Shown here piece after piece: positions 2 to 6,796 of a stretch of 6,964 nt of DNA. The position numbers and the translations under genes are program-made. The notes under the pieces were generated by a model that saw only the letters and a list, made by a program, of their open reading frames with translations, searched no databases and was not told the DNA's origin. Source of the DNA: a virus (taxonomy: Duplodnaviria > Heunggongvirae > Uroviricota > Caudoviricetes); the IMG/VR virus record IMGVR_UViG_2693429728_000005, positions 1 through 6,964 of that record; one strand, 5' to 3'. The first letter of the stretch is position 1. The number at the start of each line of letters is the position of its first letter.

Positions 2-406
2 GTGGTGAAGGATGCTTTTTATATTCATCAGCATAAAGGGACCACCAGTGCCGTGCGGCGGGTGGTGGAGCCGTTCGGATTCCTGATCCGCATTATTGAG
101 TGGTGGCAGACCGGAGAAACACCGGGCACGTTTCGCCTGGATATCGGCGTGCAGGACCAGGGCATCACTGAAGATACCTATCTGGAACTTGAGCGACTGA
201 TAAGCGATGCCAAACCATGTAGCCGCCACATGATCGGCATGTCCATCAATCTGCAGACCAGCGGCCCGCATTGGGTGGGAGCCGCCAGCTATCTTGGCGA
301 AGAAATCACGATCTATCCGTATATCAACGAAACGATTATTTCCGGTGGCACCGCGCATGAAGGCGGGGCGGTCCATGTTATTGACACAATGAGAGTGAAT
401 CCATGA
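2..406 (+). CDS. Baseplate assembly protein, P2 gpI-like, C-terminal part (5' end lies upstream of window)
   Basis: ORF runs from window edge; stop TGA overlaps ATG of the downstream fibre gene (ATGA at 403..406), typical translational coupling; position immediately upstream of H-like fibre gene matches P2 order I-H-G-FI-FII. Identity by synteny, not by search. Confidence 0.55.
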   Translation: MVKDAFYIHQHKGTTSAVRRVVEPFGFLIRIIEWWQTGETPGTFRLDIGVQDQGITEDTYLELERLISDAKPCSRHMIGMSINLQTSGPHWVGAASYLGEEITIYPYINETIISGGTAHEGGAVHVIDTMRVNP

Positions 407-1929
407 GCACAAAATTTTATACCCTGCTGACGGATATTGGCGCGGCGAAACTTGCCAGCGCCGCCGCGCTCGGTGTGCCGCTAAAAATTACCCATATGGC
501 GGTGGGCGATGGCGGTGGAGTATTGCCAACGCCGGACGCAAAACAGACGGCACTGGTAAATGAGAAACGCCGGGCTGCGCTGAATATGCTTTATATCGAC
601 CCGCAGAACAGCAGCCAGATTATTGCCGAACAGGTGATCCCTGAAAACGAGGGCGGTTGGTGGATACGTGAAGTGGGTCTGTTTGATGAGTCCGGGGCAT
701 TGATTGCCGTGGGCAACTGCCCGGAAAGCTATAAGCCGCAACTGGCTGAAGGTAGCGGGCGCACTCAGACCGTGCGCATGGTGCTGATTACCAGCAGCAC
801 GGACAATATCACCCTGAAAATCGACCCTGCTGTAGTGCTGGCAACCCGCAAGTATGTGGATGACAAGGCACTGGAGCTGAAGGTGTACGCGGATGATCAG
901 ATGGCAAAACATCTTGCCGCACCGGACCCGCATTCACAGTACGCGCCAAAAGCCAGCCCGACATTTACCGGAACCCCCAAAGCGCCAACGCCAGCGGCGG
1001 GGAATAATACCACGCAGGTTGCGACCACTGCGTTTGTACAGGCGGCACTGACGGCCCTTATTAATGGTGCGCCAGCCACGCTGGACACGCTGAAAGAAAT
1101 AGCCGCAGCCATTAACAATGATCCGAATTTCAGTACCACCATTAACAATGCGCTGGCACTAAAAGCACCGTTGTCGAGTCCGGCACTCACCGGAACGCCA
1201 ACAGCCCCCACGGCGGCGCAGTCGGTCAACAATACACAGATTGCCACTACGGCTTTTGTGAAATCGGCGATTGCAGGAATGGTGGGTTCTGCACCTGCTG
1301 CACTGGATACACTGAACGAACTGGCGGCGGCACTGGGGAATGATCCGAACTTTGCCACGACAATGCTTAATGCGCTGGCAGGTAAACAACCGCTGGACAA
1401 TACGCTTACCAATTTGAGTGGAAAGGATGTAGCTGGTCTTCTCACATACCTTGGTTTGGGAGAAGGCTCTGCATTGCCTGTTGGTGTGCCTGTTCCGTGG
1501 CCTTCAGCCACTCCGCCAACAGGCTGGCTGAAATGCAATGGTGCGGCTTTTTCTGCTGAAGAATACCCGGAACTGGCAAAGGCTTACCCGACAAATAAAT
1601 TGCCTGATTTACGCGGTGAATTTATTCGCGGCTGGGATGACGGGCGCGGGGTTGATGTTGGGCGTGCAATCTTATCATCGCAGGGCGATGCCATCAGAAA
1701 TATAATTGGCAAGTTTGGTAATACTCAATTGTACCCAAGTATCTATTGTGATGGTGCATTTGGCGTCACTGTTGAGAATGTGTCACAAACTTTAGGATTA
1801 ACTCTTGCGCCTTCAGGGGCAGGTAATGGGACTGTAAACTTTAGCTTTGATGCATCTAAAATCGTTCCTGTTGCCACTGAAAACCGGCCGCGCAACGTCG
1901 CATTTAACTTCATTGTGAGGGCTGCATAA
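403..1929 (+). CDS. Tail fibre protein (P2 gpH / Mu S-like): constant part Sc (aa 1-354) fused to variable tip Sv(A) (aa 355-508)
   Basis: 508-aa ORF; N-terminus MSTKFYTLLTDIGAAKLA...MAVGDGGG resembles P2 H N-terminus; internal NNTQxATTAFV...LDTLxExAAAxxNDPNF repeats typical of fibre shafts; C-terminus carries a tail-collar-like motif (PWPSATPPTGWLKCNGAAFSAEEYPELAKAYP...LPDLRGEFIRGWDDGRG); crossover site lies in-frame at codons 346-354 (LTYLGLGE). Confidence 0.9.
   Translation: MSTKFYTLLTDIGAAKLASAAALGVPLKITHMAVGDGGGVLPTPDAKQTALVNEKRRAALNMLYIDPQNSSQIIAEQVIPENEGGWWIREVGLFDESGALIAVGNCPESYKPQLAEGSGRTQTVRMVLITSSTDNITLKIDPAVVLATRKYVDDKALELKVYADDQMAKHLAAPDPHSQYAPKASPTFTGTPKAPTPAAGNNTTQVATTAFVQAALTALINGAPATLDTLKEIAAAINNDPNFSTTINNALALKAPLSSPALTGTPTAPTAAQSVNNTQIATTAFVKSAIAGMVGSAPAALDTLNELAAALGNDPNFATTMLNALAGKQPLDNTLTNLSGKDVAGLLTYLGLGEGSALPVGVPVPWPSATPPTGWLKCNGAAFSAEEYPELAKAYPTNKLPDLRGEFIRGWDDGRGVDVGRAILSSQGDAIRNIIGKFGNTQLYPSIYCDGAFGVTVENVSQTLGLTLAPSGAGNGTVNFSFDASKIVPVATENRPRNVAFNFIVRAA
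1439..1464. other. Invertase crossover site cix1 (26 bp, TTCTCACATACC-TT-GGTTTGGGAGAA), inside fibre gene at Sc/Sv boundary
   Basis: Near-palindromic 12-2-12 site resembling hix/gix/cix sites (half-site like TTCTCCCAAACC); sequence identity between copies begins within it; core dinucleotide TT on top strand. Confidence 0.75.
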
Positions 1930-2271
1930 TGGCACAGGCAAAATTAAACAGCGAACTGATTGCCACGGTAGCGGGTGATGTGACCGTGTTTAACTACGAC
2001 AGCAAGACGCGGGAATATCTTTCCACATCAACTGAATATCTTGCTGTTGGCGTCGGTATCCCGGCATGTTCTTGTTTAGATGCACCAGGTATACATAAAG
2101 CTGGTTATGCAATCTGCCGTTCAGCAGATTTAAACTCATGGGAGTATGTGCCAGACCATCGCGGTGAAATCATCTATAACACCGAAACGGGAGACGCCAA
2201 AGAAATCACAACTCCGGGTGATTACCCTGAAAATACAACCACTATCGCCCCGTTAACGCCATTCGATAAAT
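1451..2271 (+). repeat. Direct repeat copy 1 (821 bp): Sv(A) tip plus first 114 codons of tfa(A); identical to 2981..3801
   Basis: Base-for-base identity read from sequence and identical ORF translations; divergence at 1450 vs 2980 and at 2272 vs 3802. Confidence 0.9.
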
Positions 2272-2273
2272 AA
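1929..2273 (+). pseudogene. Truncated tail-fibre assembly gene (first 114 codons of tfa(A), then immediate TAA created by the rearrangement junction)
   Basis: 114-aa ORF identical to residues 1-114 of the 200-aa ORF at 3459..4061; lacks the C-terminal Tfa region (LNAVLDYIDAV...); sequence after codon 114 switches to the reverse complement of the invertase-downstream region. Confidence 0.8.
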
Positions 2274-2346
2274 GCGCAGTTGTACCGTTATTCACACAAA
2301 ATGACGGTATTTGTCTGCTTGCAGGGATAATCAAAATAATGCTGAT

Positions 2347-2913
2347 TCAGGGAGATTCATTGCTCTTATTTGCCGGAAATTTTCTATAAATAGTAGAAAC
2401 GCCTACATCAAAAATCAGTGCAATACGCTGTCTTGATTCTCCGGCCTCAAGTAAACGCCCAATCTGTGCCCACTGTTCGGTGGTCAACTTAGGACGGCGT
2501 CCACCTACTCTGCCTTTGGCACGAGCTGCAGCCAGCCCTGCCCTGGTACGTTCAACTATCAGTTCGCGTTCCATTTCAGCCAGGGCACCCATAACATGAA
2601 AAAAGAAACGGCCCATTGGGGTACTGGTATCAATACTGTCAGTCAGGCTTCGGAAATTCACGCCACGCTGGCGCAACTCTTCTATCAGCGTAACAAGATG
2701 CCGCATACTGCGCCCCAGTCTGTCCAGCTTCCAGACAACCAGAGTGTCTCCTGCCGATAGTGTCCTGAGCAGTTTTTTAAGCCCCGGTCTGTCGGACTTA
2801 GTGCCACTGATTTTATCCTCAAAAATCCGCTCACATCCCGCGCAGTTCAGTGCATTACGTTGCAAATCGGTGTTCTGGTCATTTGTTGACACGCGTACAT
2901 AGCCAATAAGCAT
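2347..2913 (-). CDS. Serine DNA invertase, Gin/Pin/Cin/Hin family, copy 1 (189 aa from the MLIGYVRVS start; ORF as drawn extends to 2958)
   Basis: N-terminus MLIGYVRVSTNDQNTDLQRNAL with catalytic-serine motif, VVWKLDRLGRS, FFFHVMGALAEMERELIVERT, and C-terminal HTH region GVSTIYRKF are hallmarks of small serine invertases, very close to Mu Gin as remembered; preferred start has an AGGGGA Shine-Dalgarno 7 nt upstream. Confidence 0.9.
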   Translation of the reverse strand: MLIGYVRVSTNDQNTDLQRNALNCAGCERIFEDKISGTKSDRPGLKKLLRTLSAGDTLVVWKLDRLGRSMRHLVTLIEELRQRGVNFRSLTDSIDTSTPMGRFFFHVMGALAEMERELIVERTRAGLAAARAKGRVGGRRPKLTTEQWAQIGRLLEAGESRQRIALIFDVGVSTIYRKFPANKSNESP

Positions 2914-2940
2914 GATCAATCCCCTGAATAAAAACCGGGG

Positions 2941-3459
2941 ATGATGCCAGTTAGCCATTATCTCTGCATTTTCATAAACGTTGGTTTGGGAGAAGGCTCT
3001 GCATTGCCTGTTGGTGTGCCTGTTCCGTGGCCTTCAGCCACTCCGCCAACAGGCTGGCTGAAATGCAATGGTGCGGCTTTTTCTGCTGAAGAATACCCGG
3101 AACTGGCAAAGGCTTACCCGACAAATAAATTGCCTGATTTACGCGGTGAATTTATTCGCGGCTGGGATGACGGGCGCGGGGTTGATGTTGGGCGTGCAAT
3201 CTTATCATCGCAGGGCGATGCCATCAGAAATATAATTGGCAAGTTTGGTAATACTCAATTGTACCCAAGTATCTATTGTGATGGTGCATTTGGCGTCACT
3301 GTTGAGAATGTGTCACAAACTTTAGGATTAACTCTTGCGCCTTCAGGGGCAGGTAATGGGACTGTAAACTTTAGCTTTGATGCATCTAAAATCGTTCCTG
3401 TTGCCACTGAAAACCGGCCGCGCAACGTCGCATTTAACTTCATTGTGAGGGCTGCATAA
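2941..3459 (+). CDS. Second copy of Sv(A) fibre-tip cassette, promoterless and not fused to Sc in this arrangement (cassette proper 2995..3459; the first 18 codons of the ORF are read-through across cix2 into invertase-upstream DNA)
   Basis: Residues after GLGE are identical to aa 355-508 of the fibre gene; N-terminal [14 protein letters not shown] is the antisense of the invertase leader and also appears at the start of the Sv(B) ORF, so it is not a genuine N-terminus. Confidence 0.6.
   Translation: MMPVSHYLCIFINVGLGEGSALPVGVPVPWPSATPPTGWLKCNGAAFSAEEYPELAKAYPTNKLPDLRGEFIRGWDDGRGVDVGRAILSSQGDAIRNIIGKFGNTQLYPSIYCDGAFGVTVENVSQTLGLTLAPSGAGNGTVNFSFDASKIVPVATENRPRNVAFNFIVRAA
2969..2994. other. 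Invertase crossover site cix2 (TTTTCATAAACG-TT-GGTTTGGGAGAA), same orientation as cix1
   Basis: Exact reverse complement of cix3; the left half-site is continuous with invertase-upstream sequence, the right half with Sv(A). Confidence 0.75.
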
Positions 3460-3801
3460 TGGCACAGGCAAAATTAAACAGCGAACTGATTGCCACGGTA
3501 GCGGGTGATGTGACCGTGTTTAACTACGACAGCAAGACGCGGGAATATCTTTCCACATCAACTGAATATCTTGCTGTTGGCGTCGGTATCCCGGCATGTT
3601 CTTGTTTAGATGCACCAGGTATACATAAAGCTGGTTATGCAATCTGCCGTTCAGCAGATTTAAACTCATGGGAGTATGTGCCAGACCATCGCGGTGAAAT
3701 CATCTATAACACCGAAACGGGAGACGCCAAAGAAATCACAACTCCGGGTGATTACCCTGAAAATACAACCACTATCGCCCCGTTAACGCCATTCGATAAA
3801 T
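2981..3801 (+). repeat. Direct repeat copy 2 (821 bp), identical to 1451..2271
   Basis: See copy 1. Confidence 0.9.
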
Positions 3802-4061
3802 GGGATGGTGAGAAATGGGTGACCGATACTGAGGCACAGCATTGCGCCGCAGTAGACGCGGCAGAAGCACAGCGTCAGTCACTGATTGATACTGCAATGG
3901 CTTCCATCAGTCTGATTCAACTGAAATTGCAGGCCGGGCGGAAGCTGACGCAGGCAGAAACCACCCGACTTAACGCTGTGCTGGATTACATTGACGCGGT
4001 GACGGCAACAGATACCAGCACCGCGCCGGATGTCATCTGGCCTGAACTGCCGGAGGCGTAG
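3459..4061 (+). CDS. Tail-fibre assembly protein tfa(A) (P2 gpG / Mu U-like), full length, 200 aa
   Basis: Start ATG overlaps the Sv(A) stop (TAATG); C-terminal LNAVLDYIDAVTATDTSTAPDVIWPELP resembles conserved Tfa C-termini; position directly after the fibre tip. Confidence 0.85.
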   Translation: MAQAKLNSELIATVAGDVTVFNYDSKTREYLSTSTEYLAVGVGIPACSCLDAPGIHKAGYAICRSADLNSWEYVPDHRGEIIYNTETGDAKEITTPGDYPENTTTIAPLTPFDKWDGEKWVTDTEAQHCAAVDAAEAQRQSLIDTAMASISLIQLKLQAGRKLTQAETTRLNAVLDYIDAVTATDTSTAPDVIWPELPEA

Positions 4062-4473
4062 GCCATTCAATATCTGGCGCACCGGAAGTATCGACCAGTT
4101 CCAGTGCGTCCAGGTAATCCAGCCACAAATTATATTGCGCCAGTTCGTCACCTTTCAGACGACCAATAGCCGCTTTACCAGGCCATTGTTTACTGTTCAT
4201 ATAATCGTTGGCCTGATTAATCAATTGCTGCTTCTCCAGTTCGGCTGCAGCAATTTGTTCCTCATGTGTTGGTGGTGGAATTTCGGACCATGCAGGAAAA
4301 CCATTTTCTCCAGCGATACGGATTTTTCCTTTCGGCGGTAATCCGGAAAACTCAATATACACTTGCTCATCAACTTCAACAGCATCATCTGGCCATGAGT
4401 CAGCTTGAGTGTAATCCTCTTTCATCTCCAGCGGATAGAAAGAGTTTGTAGTCGCGGAATATATGTAATTCAT
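4033..4473 (-). CDS. Alternative tail-fibre assembly protein tfa(B) (Mu U'-like), 146 aa
   Basis: Convergent with tfa(A), with 3' ends overlapping by 29 bp (4033..4061); C-terminal NLWLDYLDALELVDTSGAPDIEWPTPP parallels the tfa(A) C-terminus; GGAG Shine-Dalgarno upstream on minus strand. Confidence 0.8.
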   Translation of the reverse strand: MNYIYSATTNSFYPLEMKEDYTQADSWPDDAVEVDEQVYIEFSGLPPKGKIRIAGENGFPAWSEIPPPTHEEQIAAAELEKQQLINQANDYMNSKQWPGKAAIGRLKGDELAQYNLWLDYLDALELVDTSGAPDIEWPTPPAVQAR

Positions 4474-4494
4474 TTTTCACTCCATATAGCTAAA

Positions 4495-4887
4495 TTAACA
4501 GCCTAACGCTAAAAATGAAGCGCCGAGGCCAGGAGTACTGGCTCTGGATATAAATTTAACCGGGTCGGGACTAAAACCTGCACAGGCAATATAACCAACA
4601 GCCCCGCTATCTGGTGTGTAGTCTTGTGAGACCAAAACACGCAGACATCTGTTTGGAAATGCAATCGGGAAATGGGTTACTACATCCTGTGCAATGCCTG
4701 GTGCGCCGATTGAGCCCCACTGAAGAATAAAACCTGATGGTAATTTTTGATATCCAGTACCTGAAACAGAAAGCGTGAAGCTACCCATATCAGGTATCTG
4801 ATTCGCCCCTGTCCCTACATTCCTTTTAGCCGCTTCTCCCAAACCAACGTTTATGAAAATGCAGAGATAATGGCTAACTGGCATCAT
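4495..4887 (-). CDS. Alternative fibre-tip cassette Sv(B), silent in this orientation (cassette proper 4495..4833, 112 aa after GLGE; the ORF as drawn reads through cix3)
   Basis: Minus-strand reading through cix3 gives ...NVGLGE then [19 protein letters not shown]...ALGC, in the same frame as Sc across the crossover site; inversion would produce a 466-aa Sc+Sv(B) fibre; sits directly upstream (minus sense) of tfa(B). Confidence 0.75.
4834..4859. other. Invertase crossover site cix3 (TTCTCCCAAACC-AA-CGTTTATGAAAA), inverted relative to cix1 and cix2
   Basis: 12-2-12 site; close to the hix half-site as remembered (TTATCAAAAACC); core AA on top strand versus TT at cix1/cix2. Confidence 0.8.
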
Positions 4888-4914
4888 CCCCGGTTTTTAT
4901 TCAGGGGATTGATC

Positions 4915-5481
4915 ATGCTTATTGGCTATGTACGCGTGTCAACAAATGACCAGAACACCGATTTGCAACGTAATGCACTGAACTGCGCGGGATGTGAGCG
5001 GATTTTTGAGGATAAAATCAGTGGCACTAAGTCCGACAGACCGGGGCTTAAAAAACTGCTCAGGACACTATCGGCAGGAGACACTCTGGTTGTCTGGAAG
5101 CTGGACAGACTGGGGCGCAGTATGCGGCATCTTGTTACGCTGATAGAAGAGTTGCGCCAGCGTGGCGTGAATTTCCGAAGCCTGACTGACAGTATTGATA
5201 CCAGTACCCCAATGGGCCGTTTCTTTTTTCATGTTATGGGTGCCCTGGCTGAAATGGAACGCGAACTGATAGTTGAACGTACCAGGGCAGGGCTGGCTGC
5301 AGCTCGTGCCAAAGGCAGAGTAGGTGGACGCCGTCCTAAGTTGACCACCGAACAGTGGGCACAGATTGGGCGTTTACTTGAGGCCGGAGAATCAAGACAG
5401 CGTATTGCACTGATTTTTGATGTAGGCGTTTCTACTATTTATAGAAAATTTCCGGCAAATAAGAGCAATGAATCTCCCTGA
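4915..5481 (+). CDS. Serine DNA invertase, Gin/Pin/Cin/Hin family, copy 2 (ORF as drawn starts at 4870)
   Basis: Identical protein to copy 1; AGGGGA Shine-Dalgarno before ATG 4915; a GATAAT -10-like hexamer at 4866..4871 abuts cix3, consistent with a promoter overlapping the crossover site. Confidence 0.9.
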   Translation: MLIGYVRVSTNDQNTDLQRNALNCAGCERIFEDKISGTKSDRPGLKKLLRTLSAGDTLVVWKLDRLGRSMRHLVTLIEELRQRGVNFRSLTDSIDTSTPMGRFFFHVMGALAEMERELIVERTRAGLAAARAKGRVGGRRPKLTTEQWAQIGRLLEAGESRQRIALIFDVGVSTIYRKFPANKSNESP

Positions 5482-5529
5482 ATCAGCATTATTTTGATTA
5501 TCCCTGCAAGCAGACAAATACCGTCATTT

Positions 5530-5547
5530 TGTGTGAATAACGGTACA
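5530..5547 (+). promoter_or_regulatory. TGT-N12-ACA dyad, candidate P2-type late-promoter activator (Ogr/Delta family) site upstream of the sheath gene
   Basis: TGTgtgaataacggtACA lies about 75-95 nt upstream of the sheath ATG (5624), appropriate for an element centred near -55; P2 late promoters carry this dyad. The same dyad is mirrored at 2281..2298 inside the left repeat arm. Confidence 0.4.
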
Positions 5548-5623
5548 ACTGCGCTTAGCTGTTTGTCAGGCACAATCACTTCAACATAGGGCGAAGCCTA
5601 ATCCAATCAGGAGGTTCGCCACT

Positions 5624-6796
5624 ATGGCTCAGGATTACCACCACGGGGTGCGCGTTGTTGAAGTCAACGAAGGCACCCGATCCATTACCACGGTGAGCAC
5701 CGCCATCGTGGGTATGATCTGCACGGGCGATGATGCCGATGCAAAAATGTTTCCTCTTAATAAACCCGTGCTGATCACTGATGTGCTGACTGCCAGCGGT
5801 AAAGCGGGTGAGTCCGGTACTCTGGCCCGTTCGCTGGATGCCATCGCTGACCAGGCAAAACCCGTGACCGTTGTTGTGCGTGTGCCGCAGGGTGAAACGG
5901 AAGACGAAACCACGACCAATATCATCGGCGCTGTGACTGCTGAAGGTAAAAAAACAGGCATGAAAGCCCTGCTATCTGCCCAGTCACAGCTCGGCGTTAA
6001 ACCGCGCATTCTCGGCGTGCCAGGTCACGATAACAAAGCCGTTGCGACTGAGTTGCTGAGCGTGGCGCAAAGCCTGCGTGGGTTTGCTTACCTGTCAGCG
6101 TATGGCTGCAAGACGGTACAGGAGGCGATCACTTACCGTGAAAACTTCAGCCAGCGCGAAGGAATGCTGATCTGGCCCGACTTTACTGGCTGGGATACGG
6201 TGTTGAATGCCGAAGCAACGGCATATGCCACCGCCCGTGCGCTTGGTCTGCGCGCCAAAATTGATGAGCAGACCGGGTGGCACAAAAGCCTGTCCAACGT
6301 GGGCGTGAACGGTGTCACCGGAATTTCTGCAGATGTGTTCTGGGATCTGCAGGACCCGGCAACCGATGCGGGACTGCTTAACCAGAACGACGTCACCACG
6401 CTTATCCGCAAAGACGGTTTCCGCTTCTGGGGTTCCCGCTGCCTGAGTGATGACCCGCTCTTTGCCTTCGAAAACTACACCCGCACGGCGCAGGTACTGA
6501 TGGACACGATGGCAGAAGCGCATATGTGGGCGGTGGACAAACCGCTGAACCCGTCGCTGGCCCGCGACATTATCGAAGGTATCCGCGCCAAAATGCGCAG
6601 CCTGGTCAGTCAGGGGTATCTCATTGGTGGTGATTGCTGGCTGGACGAGTCGGTGAACGACAAAGACACGCTGAAAGCCGGAAAACTCACCATCGACTAT
6701 GACTACACGCCAGTGCCGCCACTTGAAAATCTGATGCTGCGTCAGCGCATCACCGATCAGTACCTGGTGAATTTTGCCAGCCAGGTCAGCGCGTAA
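5624..6796 (+). CDS. Tail sheath protein (P2 gpFI-like), 390 aa
   Basis: Strong AGGAGG Shine-Dalgarno 8 nt upstream; N-terminus [31 protein letters not shown] matches the contractile-tail sheath N-terminus of P2-like phages as remembered; followed by tail tube gene. Confidence 0.9.

What the first reader, a model, noticed from the sequence alone, without database searches (positions are those of the whole stretch)
2271..5557. Perfect 724-bp inverted repeats flank the invertible cassette
The two arms (2271..2994, 4834..5557) look identical by inspection, implying a very recent duplication or ongoing gene conversion. Such long perfect inverted repeats are substrates for RecA-dependent homologous inversion of the intervening 1.84 kb, so fibre switching could occur even without invertase activity or its Fis-dependent enhancer. 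They can also cause replication-associated instability and confound short-read assembly.
Basis: partly seen in the sequence, partly recalled or inferred. Interest (0 to 1): 0.55.

Follow-up and report, generated by a model that had tools for sequence, protein, structure and literature searches.

The report
Probable misassembly at phage tail-fibre switch
The perfect 725-base inverted repeat is really in the sequence, but it most likely arose when assembly software butted together two contigs showing the two orientations of an ordinary, single-copy, flip-flop tail-fibre switch of a P2-like prophage, so it is probably not a biological feature.

Summary
Bases 2271-2995 and 4833-5557 are exact reverse complements (725 nt, no mismatch). 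Together the two repeats form one extra 1,530-bp block. Removing it gives a sequence 100% identical over 5,434 bp to a normal single-invertase P2-like prophage found in other assemblies.

The locus is a standard Gin/Cin-type tail-fibre inversion switch. The only new join is at 2270/2271, and it appears in no other collection searched.

Four of 80 related IMG/VR loci carry perfect long duplications at this locus. One (L024) has exactly the window's layout. In all four, every new join is a single 'N', which is a scaffold gap. No complete E. coli genome shows the layout, and 18% of related contigs break at the crossover site.

Best reading (about 0.7): a scaffolding or gap-closing artefact caused by a population with mixed orientations. 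Rival (about 0.25): a real, very recent 1,530-bp tandem duplication followed by one invertase flip.

In either case, flipping between the two arms cannot switch the fibre.

The parts
2..406 (+). 3' part of the baseplate gene (P2 gpI family)
   Evidence: Pfam Tail_P2_I, E 6e-24. Same position as 'phage tail protein I' in strain SL124.
403..1929 (+). Tail-fibre gene H. The constant part Sc (403-1438) is fused through crossover site L to the variable part Sv (1465-1929).
   Evidence: Pfam Phage_tail_fib plus Collar. The 508-aa product is identical to one carried on at least 24 other contigs.
1439..1464 (+). Crossover site L: TTCTCACATACC TT GGTTTGGGAGAA
   Evidence: 26-bp site with a 2-bp core TT. 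Same inner half as sites M and R. Site R aligns with Mu gixR.
1451..2271 (+). Direct-repeat copy 1 (821 nt, exact): inner half of site L, Sv and the first 342 nt of chaperone gene U
   Evidence: Identical to 2981-3801.
1929..2273 (+). Truncated tail-fibre assembly gene U (114 of 200 codons), cut by the new join
   Evidence: No Pfam hit, whereas full-length U hits Caudo_TAP at residues 78-199. This exact product is in no other assembly on record.
2270..2271 (.). The only new join: the middle of U is joined to the reverse complement of position 5557. One base (T, 2271) fits both sides.
   Evidence: Absent from 5,426 complete E. coli genomes, phage and plasmid records, species-representative genomes, IMG/VR and JGI metagenomes.
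2271..2995 (-). Left arm of the inverted repeat: 76 nt downstream of the invertase gene, invertase copy (2347-2913, minus strand) and site M
   Evidence: Exact reverse complement of 4833-5557. Pfam Resolvase plus HTH_7.
2969..2994 (+). Crossover site M: TTTTCATAAACG TT GGTTTGGGAGAA. It is the exact reverse complement of site R and lies in the same orientation as site L.
2996..4832 (.). Complete invertible cassette: Sv (to 3459), U (3459-4061, +), U' (4033-4473, -), Sv' (4495-4832, -)
   Evidence: Pfam Caudo_TAP twice and Gp53-like_C. Same gene order as Mu G and P1 C segments.
4834..4859 (+). Crossover site R: TTCTCCCAAACC AA CGTTTATGAAAA
   Evidence: Aligns with Mu gixR. The core AA is the complement of the cores of L and M.
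4833..5557 (+). Right arm of the inverted repeat. This is the copy in the normal position.
   Evidence: Co-linear with SL124 and L002.
4915..5481 (+). Gin-family serine DNA invertase (188 aa), catalytic Ser9 present
   Evidence: E 8e-93 to the Mu Gin structure 3uj3 over residues 1-184. Pfam Resolvase plus HTH_7.
4933..5004 (+). Stretch homologous to the annotated P1 cin recombinational enhancer (nt 19-90 of the gene). Its copy in the left arm lies at 2824-2895.
   Evidence: The P1 record annotates the enhancer at 31678-31749, inside cin. Alignment of the 5' ends of the three invertase genes. Function is inferred, not tested.
5530..5547 (+). TGT-N12-ACA dyad about 86 nt upstream of the sheath start codon. 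Candidate late-promoter activator site; its copy lies at 2281-2298.
   Evidence: not enriched overall. The annotated P2 pF activator site lies 83 nt upstream of FI. This is a lead only.
5624..6796 (+). Tail sheath gene (P2 FI family)
   Evidence: Pfam Phage_sheath_1, Phage_sheath_1C and Gp18_domIII_N.

Best explanation
The locus is an ordinary P2-like prophage tail-fibre switch of the Mu Gin / P1 Cin kind. It has one serine invertase, two 26-bp crossover sites, and a 1.84-kb cassette holding two alternative fibre tips with their chaperones. The second invertase copy, and so the perfect 725-nt inverted repeat, is most likely an assembly product. The sequenced culture held both orientations of the cassette. 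One contig ran from the fibre gene through site L into the cassette and stopped 821 nt later. A second contig covered the cassette and the genes to its right, but at its left end it followed flipped-state reads through the site into 725 nt of reverse-complemented invertase DNA. A scaffolder then placed the two contigs end to end without recognising their overlap, and the gap was closed or left at zero length. That adds exactly 1,530 false bases, one join with no homology, an 821-nt direct repeat and a 725-nt inverted repeat. Shown here: the anatomy, the identity to a single-copy parent, and the same kind of N-marked duplication in four other scaffolds, one with exactly the window's layout. Inferred: that the window's own join arose the same way.
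For: 1) Removing 2272-3801 gives 5,434 bp with 0 differences to L002 and L004, and 5 SNPs to the complete genome SL124, which has one invertase.
2) The join and the truncated U product occur nowhere else.
3) Of 80 IMG/VR loci with this invertase, four (L024, L027, L054, L078) carry perfect long duplications at this locus. They are the only four that contain any N, and each N sits exactly on a new join. L024 has the window's exact layout: Sc-L-Sv-partial U | reverse-complemented invertase-M-cassette-R-invertase, with a 912-nt inverted repeat, a 799-nt direct repeat and 1,840 nt between the arms.
4) None of 80 unscaffolded metagenome contigs and none of 79 species-representative genome loci shows it. 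No complete E. coli genome shows it among 2,611 that match the probe.
5) In the window, L024, L027 and L054, the distance from a crossover site to the join is 615-949 nt. That is about one long read or one insert length, which is what contig overhangs past a branch point would give.
6) 43 of 239 related contigs end 63-204 nt upstream of the invertase start, which is at site R, and contig L004 ends 2 nt before it. Assemblies break here routinely.
7) PMC4134206 documents alternative-orientation contigs at prophage tail-fibre inversions and warns that integrating them gives 'artefactual duplications in phage regions'.
Against: The window has no N at the join, whereas all six joins in the four comparison scaffolds do. 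A gap-closing step, or a zero-length gap, has to be assumed. The source assembly, its method and its reads are unknown. The sequence is also exactly what a real tandem duplication plus one legitimate inversion would give. It has a single new join with 1-nt microhomology, which is typical of illegitimate recombination. Automated graph assemblers do not normally create a join that no read supports.
Confidence: 0.7

Rival explanations
1. A real, very recent segmental duplication. While the cassette was in the flipped state, a 1,530-bp block (first 342 nt of U, Sv, site R, the invertase gene and 76 nt downstream) was duplicated in tandem by illegitimate recombination. The invertase then inverted everything between site L and the distal site R, which gives the window. 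The locus would then have three crossover sites, two invertase genes and four interconvertible isomers. It would be unstable, because RecA recombination between the 821-nt direct repeats (or between the 1,530-bp tandem copies) restores the parent.
For: In-silico L x R inversion turns the window into an exact head-to-tail 2 x 1,530-bp repeat (2497-4026 / 4027-5556) with a single new join. The join has 1-nt microhomology and no N. Both copies carry the window-specific SNPs. Both fibre fusions, Sc-Sv and Sc-Sv', occur in nature (428 and 53 complete genomes), so the sites are active. The isomer with Sc-Sv' is in frame and is followed by intact U'.
Against: No second example without a scaffold gap was found: 0 among 2,611 matching complete E. 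coli genomes, 80 metagenome contigs and 79 genome loci. Scaffolded records do show such duplications, but always with an N at the join, and one of them has the window's exact layout. Both simple cases (the window and L024) are in the same one of four possible isomers. The lengths from site to join look like read or insert lengths. The junction-specific protein is in no other assembly.
Confidence: 0.25
2. An old duplication of the invertase gene, with the two copies kept identical by gene conversion.
For: Long inverted repeats can be homogenised by conversion.
Against: The same prophage with 0 differences exists without the duplication. At least 24 contigs with the identical fibre allele are single-copy. 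The join is unique. An old arrangement would be shared by relatives.
Confidence: 0.02
3. Invertase-mediated recombination between the crossover sites of two different prophages, as seems to have produced the double-invertase loci in strains FDAARGOS_1287 and bR_120_Kylling.
For: Complete genomes L088 and L089 and IMG/VR locus L015 do have a cassette flanked by two inverted invertase genes without any N.
Against: In those loci the two invertases are only 80-86% identical, and each continues outward into its own, different flanking genes. In the window the left arm is 100% identical and stops after 725 nt at a non-site join inside U.
Confidence: 0.02

Closest known systems
Phage Mu G segment / Gin invertase
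   Same: The invertase is about 75-80% identical to Gin, with Ser9 and the HTH domain. The 26-bp sites align with gixR. The gene order Sc | Sv-U-U'-Sv' | invertase is the same. The switch fuses alternative C-termini to a constant fibre N-terminus.
   Different: The host element is a P2-like prophage: baseplate gene I upstream and sheath gene FI downstream. Mu has one gin gene and 34-bp inverted repeats. The window shows a second, identical invertase copy, which is probably false.
Phage P1 C segment / Cin, with its 0.6-kb inverted repeats
   Same: This is a natural case of long, near-perfect inverted repeats at an invertible tail-fibre cassette: 636 nt, 98%, 3,006 nt apart. The enhancer lies inside the 5' end of the invertase gene.
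   Different: The P1 repeats lie inside the invertible segment, starting at the cix sites and running inward. They encode the shared part of Sv and Sv', and cin is single-copy. The window's arms lie outside the crossover sites and consist of the invertase gene itself.
Alternative-orientation contigs at prophage tail-fibre inversions (E. coli EC958, PMC4134206)
   Same: Same kind of locus. Mixed orientations in the sequenced culture gave extra contigs, and the authors warn explicitly that merging them creates artefactual duplications. Here four IMG/VR scaffolds show this kind of duplication, with N-marked joins.
   Different: The EC958 authors kept the alternative contigs out of the chromosome. 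In the window the pieces appear fused, with no gap character.
Multiple-inversion systems (Min of plasmid p15B; shufflons)
   Same: Taken at face value the window has three crossover sites and could adopt four isomers. This is the type of state from which multi-cassette systems could evolve.
   Different: Those systems have diverged cassettes and one recombinase gene, and they are conserved across relatives. Here the third site belongs to an exact, unshared copy. What I say about p15B Min comes from my own knowledge and the P1 record's notes; it was not tested.

Membership tests
Gin/Cin/Hin/Pin-type DNA inversion switch | Small serine recombinase with the catalytic serine near the N-terminus and a C-terminal HTH domain | tested here: met
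   Pfam Resolvase 2.9e-53 and HTH_7 1.7e-15. E 8e-93 to Gin structure 3uj3, Ser9 present.
Gin/Cin/Hin/Pin-type DNA inversion switch | Two 26-bp crossover sites (12-nt half-sites around a 2-bp core) in inverted orientation with matching cores | tested here: met
   Site L has core TT and site R has core AA, and they share a 12-nt inner half. Site R aligns with Mu gixR. The form matches the consensus table in PMC4134206.
Gin/Cin/Hin/Pin-type DNA inversion switch | Fis-dependent recombinational enhancer in cis, inside the 5' part of the invertase gene | tested here: inconclusive
   Window 4933-5004 is homologous to the enhancer annotated in the P1 record, and the three genes align well there. Fis binding cannot be tested with these tools.
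Gin/Cin/Hin/Pin-type DNA inversion switch | Inversion swaps alternative fibre C-termini, each with its own chaperone gene, and both states occur in nature | tested here: met
   In-silico L x R inversion gives an in-frame Sc-Sv' (466 aa) followed by U'. The Sc-Sv join is found in 428 complete E. coli genomes and the Sc-Sv' join in 53.
Scaffolding / contig-abutment artefact at a mixed-orientation locus | Layout is [flank-site-part of cassette] + [reverse-complemented far flank-site-whole cassette-site-far flank], with exact copies and one join without homology | tested here: met
   L024 has the same layout.
Scaffolding / contig-abutment artefact at a mixed-orientation locus | A gap character (N) at the join | tested here: not met
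   The window has no N; base 2271 is T. All six joins in L024, L027, L054 and L078 are a single N.
Scaffolding / contig-abutment artefact at a mixed-orientation locus | The arrangement is absent from gap-free complete genomes and from unscaffolded contigs | tested here: met
   0 window-like cases among 2,611 matching complete E. coli genomes; the two hits at 80% coverage or more have diverged invertases. 0 of 80 metagenome contigs and 0 of 79 genome loci.
Scaffolding / contig-abutment artefact at a mixed-orientation locus | No read spans the join, and depth is single-copy | not testable with these tools
   The source assembly and its reads are not available.
Real tandem segmental duplication | One isomer is an exact head-to-tail repeat with a single new join | tested here: met
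   L x R inversion in silico gives 2 x 1,530 bp, exact.
Real tandem segmental duplication | Independent support: the same join in another assembly or clone, or in reads | tested here: not met
   The join is absent from every collection searched. Reads are not available.
P1 C-segment-type long inverted repeats | The inverted repeats lie inside the invertible segment and encode the shared part of the two fibre tips | tested here: not met
   Apart from the 26-bp sites themselves, the window's arms lie outside the crossover sites and hold the invertase gene. In P1 the arms run inward from cix.

The most novel reading that the evidence does not exclude
The duplication is real and was caught within a few generations of forming. 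A 1.53-kb tandem duplication gave a P2-like prophage a second invertase gene, a third crossover site and a spare fibre-tip cassette. The invertase has already shuffled it into a non-tandem isomer. That would be a snapshot of how two-state fibre switches grow into multi-cassette inversion systems such as Min.
Probability: 0.25. Interest if true: 0.35.

Novelty: not a real feature. Interest (0 to 1): 0.12.

Why it matters
Mainly as a caution. Invertible prophage tail-fibre segments are heterogeneous in almost every culture, and they leave characteristic false duplications in scaffolded assemblies: an extra, perfectly identical invertase gene in inverted orientation plus a partial second cassette. 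The recognisable signature is an exact inverted repeat that starts at a crossover site, together with an exact direct repeat that starts at the other site, the two meeting at one join with no homology. This signature can be used to flag such errors and to avoid annotating phantom 'two-invertase' switches. If the duplication were real, it would be a modestly interesting intermediate in the growth of multi-cassette inversion systems.

Tried and rejected
1) Invertase-made duplication by unequal sister exchange at pseudo-sites. Rejected: the two parental sequences at the join share 1 nt, not a 2-bp core, and neither resembles a half-site (read by eye).

2) Simple fold-back (hairpin) read artefact. 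Rejected: a fold-back gives X followed directly by its own reverse complement. Here the arms are separated by 1,837 unique bases, and the join links two positions 1.5-1.8 kb apart.

3) De Bruijn graph walk without a physical join. The walk 'reverse-complemented right flank -> cassette -> right flank' is valid in a mixed-state graph, but it cannot create the mid-gene join at 2271. The artefact therefore needs contig abutment.

4) Looking for the source contig. The junction 24-30-mers were scanned in species-representative genomes, IMG/VR and JGI metagenomes, with no hit. A control then showed that the pattern letter N does not match a literal N in a target, so N-gapped joins are invisible to such scans. 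This was covered for IMG/VR by fetching all 33 contigs that carry the flanking U allele; all continue normally.

5) Exact-protein look-ups of the truncated U and of the site-M-spanning ORF. Nothing is on record.

6) Alignment of the region upstream of the sheath gene to the P2 pF promoter. The DNA similarity is poor; only the spacing of the dyad agrees.

7) Sigma-70 promoter and terminator scans. Counts were at or near chance and are not used.
Full report
OBSERVATION. The repeat is real in the sequence. Positions 2271-2995 and 4833-5557 are exact reverse complements over 725 nt, with 1,837 nt between them. The match ends abruptly on both sides. The direct and inverted repeats meet at base 2271. 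Together they describe one extra block of 1,530 bp.

WHAT THE LOCUS IS. The window is the tail-fibre region of a P2-like prophage:
- end of baseplate gene I (2-406);
- fibre gene H (403-1929);
- a 114-codon stump of the fibre-assembly gene U (1929-2273);
- an invertase gene on the minus strand (2347-2913);
- a second copy of the fibre tip Sv, then full-length U (3459-4061);
- U' and Sv' on the minus strand (4033-4473 and 4495-4832);
- an invertase gene on the plus strand (4915-5481);
- the sheath gene (5624-6796).
These assignments rest. The invertase is a close relative of Mu Gin (E 8e-93 to structure 3uj3, catalytic Ser9 present).

There are three 26-bp crossover sites. Site L (1439-1464) and site M (2969-2994) lie in one orientation with core TT. 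Site R (4834-4859) lies in the other orientation with core AA. All three share the inner half-site GGTTTGGGAGAA. Site R aligns with Mu gixR. The 5' end of the invertase gene is homologous to the stretch annotated as the recombinational enhancer inside P1 cin; its function here is inferred only.

RELATION TO NORMAL COPIES. Every close relative has a single invertase. The best complete genome, E. coli SL124, covers the same genes in 5,434 bp, which is 6,964 minus 1,530. Deleting 2272-3801 from the window gives a sequence with 5 SNPs to SL124 and 0 differences to two other assemblies, L002 and L004. Three of the SNPs against SL124 lie in the duplicated part, and both copies carry them. The extra block was therefore copied from this very allele. 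The exact fibre protein is on at least 24 other contigs, all with the single-copy layout.

The one join that a normal locus cannot supply is 2270/2271. It links the middle of U to the reverse complement of position 5557 and shares 1 nt. This join, and the truncated U product, were found nowhere else: not in 5,426 complete E. coli genomes, phage or plasmid records, species-representative genomes, IMG/VR, JGI metagenomes or the gene-position index. The other unusual adjacency, reverse-complemented invertase next to Sv across site M, is simply what the flipped state of a normal locus looks like when read backwards.

WHAT THE ARRANGEMENT WOULD DO IF REAL. I modelled inversion at the site cores.
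- Inversion between M and R gives the same outcome as homologous recombination between the two arms. It leaves the fibre gene as Sc-Sv (508 aa) followed by the truncated U, and it turns the only full-length U onto the other strand.
- Inversion between L and R gives Sc-Sv' (466 aa) followed by intact U'.
Arm-to-arm inversion therefore does not switch the fibre. L and M are direct repeats. Invertases of this family are constrained by the enhancer-bound invertasome to give inversion only (PMC3798978), so they should not excise the block. RecA acting on the 821-nt direct repeats would excise it and restore the parent exactly. Both fibre fusions exist in nature: the Sc-Sv join occurs in 428 complete E. 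coli genomes and the Sc-Sv' join in 53.

TWO WAYS TO GET THIS SEQUENCE. (a) Real event. The L x R isomer of the window is an exact head-to-tail 2 x 1,530-bp repeat. A tandem duplication made in the flipped state, followed by one ordinary inversion, therefore reproduces the window with a single illegitimate join.

(b) Artefact. One contig ends inside the cassette. A second contig starts with a reverse-complemented invertase overhang built from flipped-state reads. Placing them end to end gives the same sequence.

EVIDENCE THAT DECIDES BETWEEN THEM. I fetched 239 related loci using the invertase protein: 80 from IMG/VR, 79 species-representative genomes and 80 metagenome contigs. I then compared each locus with itself.

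Perfect long duplications occur in exactly four loci: L024, L027, L054 and L078, all from IMG/VR. These four are the only IMG/VR loci that contain any N, and each N sits exactly on a new join (L024:7831; L027:2494 and 4146; L054:2523 and 5198; L078:3875). L024 has the window's layout piece for piece, with different breakpoints: a 912-nt perfect inverted repeat, a 799-nt direct repeat and 1,840 nt between the arms. Those joins are scaffold gaps, so the duplications there are overlapping contigs from the two orientation states.

No unscaffolded metagenome contig and no species-representative genome locus shows the pattern. I also built a probe that reaches 80% coverage only when two invertase copies flank a cassette. 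It found 2 of 2,611 matching complete E. coli genomes, and in both the two invertases are only 80-86% identical and continue into different flanking genes. That is a different phenomenon.

In the window, L024, L027 and L054, the distance from a crossover site to the join is 615-949 nt, about one long read or one insert. Contig breaks at site R are routine: 43 of 239 loci end 63-204 nt upstream of the invertase start, and L004 ends 2 nt before the site. The EC958 genome paper describes alternative-orientation contigs at just such loci and warns that merging them creates artefactual duplications (PMC4134206).

WHAT KEEPS THE REAL-EVENT READING ALIVE. The window has no N at the join, and the join base T fits both sides. 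Filling a one-base gap with a base supported by reads would produce this, but that step is assumed, not shown. I could not identify the source assembly or see its reads. I put the artefact at about 0.7 and the real recent duplication at about 0.25. An old duplication homogenised by conversion is excluded by the identical single-copy parent and the absence of the join in relatives. An origin by recombination between two prophages is excluded by the 100% identity and by the join lying away from any crossover site.

COMPARISON WITH KNOWN SYSTEMS. The switch itself is a standard member of the Gin/Cin/Hin/Pin class. The recombinase, the sites, the cassette logic and the natural occurrence of both states were all tested and met; the enhancer is inferred by homology. 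Long inverted repeats at such cassettes are known from P1: 636 nt at 98%, measured here. The EC958 prophages also have them. In those cases the repeats lie inside the invertible segment and encode shared fibre sequence. The window's arms lie outside the sites and are the invertase gene itself, so the window is not of that kind.

VERDICT. Interest is low. Its value is as a recognisable signature of misassembly at invertible prophage loci.

Noticed in passing
L089 (NZ_CP182374.1, 4760-7887), L088 (NZ_CP070071.1, 4895-8076), L015 (4456-7564): Two complete E. coli genomes and one IMG/VR contig carry an invertible fibre cassette flanked by two diverged invertase genes (80-86% nt identity) in inverted orientation, with no N. 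In L089 each invertase is followed outward by its own sheath, tube and tape-measure genes, a mirror image of two different P2-like prophage halves. In L088 the left neighbour is pinE beside ssrA. This looks like invertase-mediated recombination between crossover sites of two different prophages, which would mean a large chromosomal inversion.
   Followed up: partly
239 related loci (L008-L248); window site R at 4834-4859: 43 of 239 contigs end 63-204 nt upstream of the invertase start codon, which is at the crossover site. Contig L004 ends 2 nt before site R. Assemblies break at this site routinely, which implies mixed orientations in most sequenced populations.
   Followed up: yes
window 5530-5547 (copy at 2281-2298): TGT-N12-ACA dyad about 86 nt upstream of the sheath start codon. 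The activator-binding site annotated for the P2 pF late promoter has nearly the same spacing (83 nt). The right end of the duplicated block (5557) falls just downstream of it. The motif count in the window is not above chance.
   Followed up: partly
NZ_CP019274.1, CP019275.1, NZ_CP019279.1 (E. coli strain 13P477T): Small records of 15-37 kb, filed as plasmids or as a phage, contain the P2-like tail-fibre/invertase region that is also present in the strain's chromosome record (NZ_CP019273.1). They may be alternative-orientation contigs deposited as separate replicons.
   Followed up: no
L003 (GCA_036918795.1), locus 11692-12808: The same prophage allele has an internal deletion that truncates the sheath gene (247 aa) and removes the tube gene, so this copy is defective.
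   Followed up: no
tool behaviour: In collection scans the pattern letter N does not match a literal N in the target. A control with L024's own N-containing join found nothing. Scans with junction k-mers therefore cannot detect joins that contain a gap character.
   Followed up: yes
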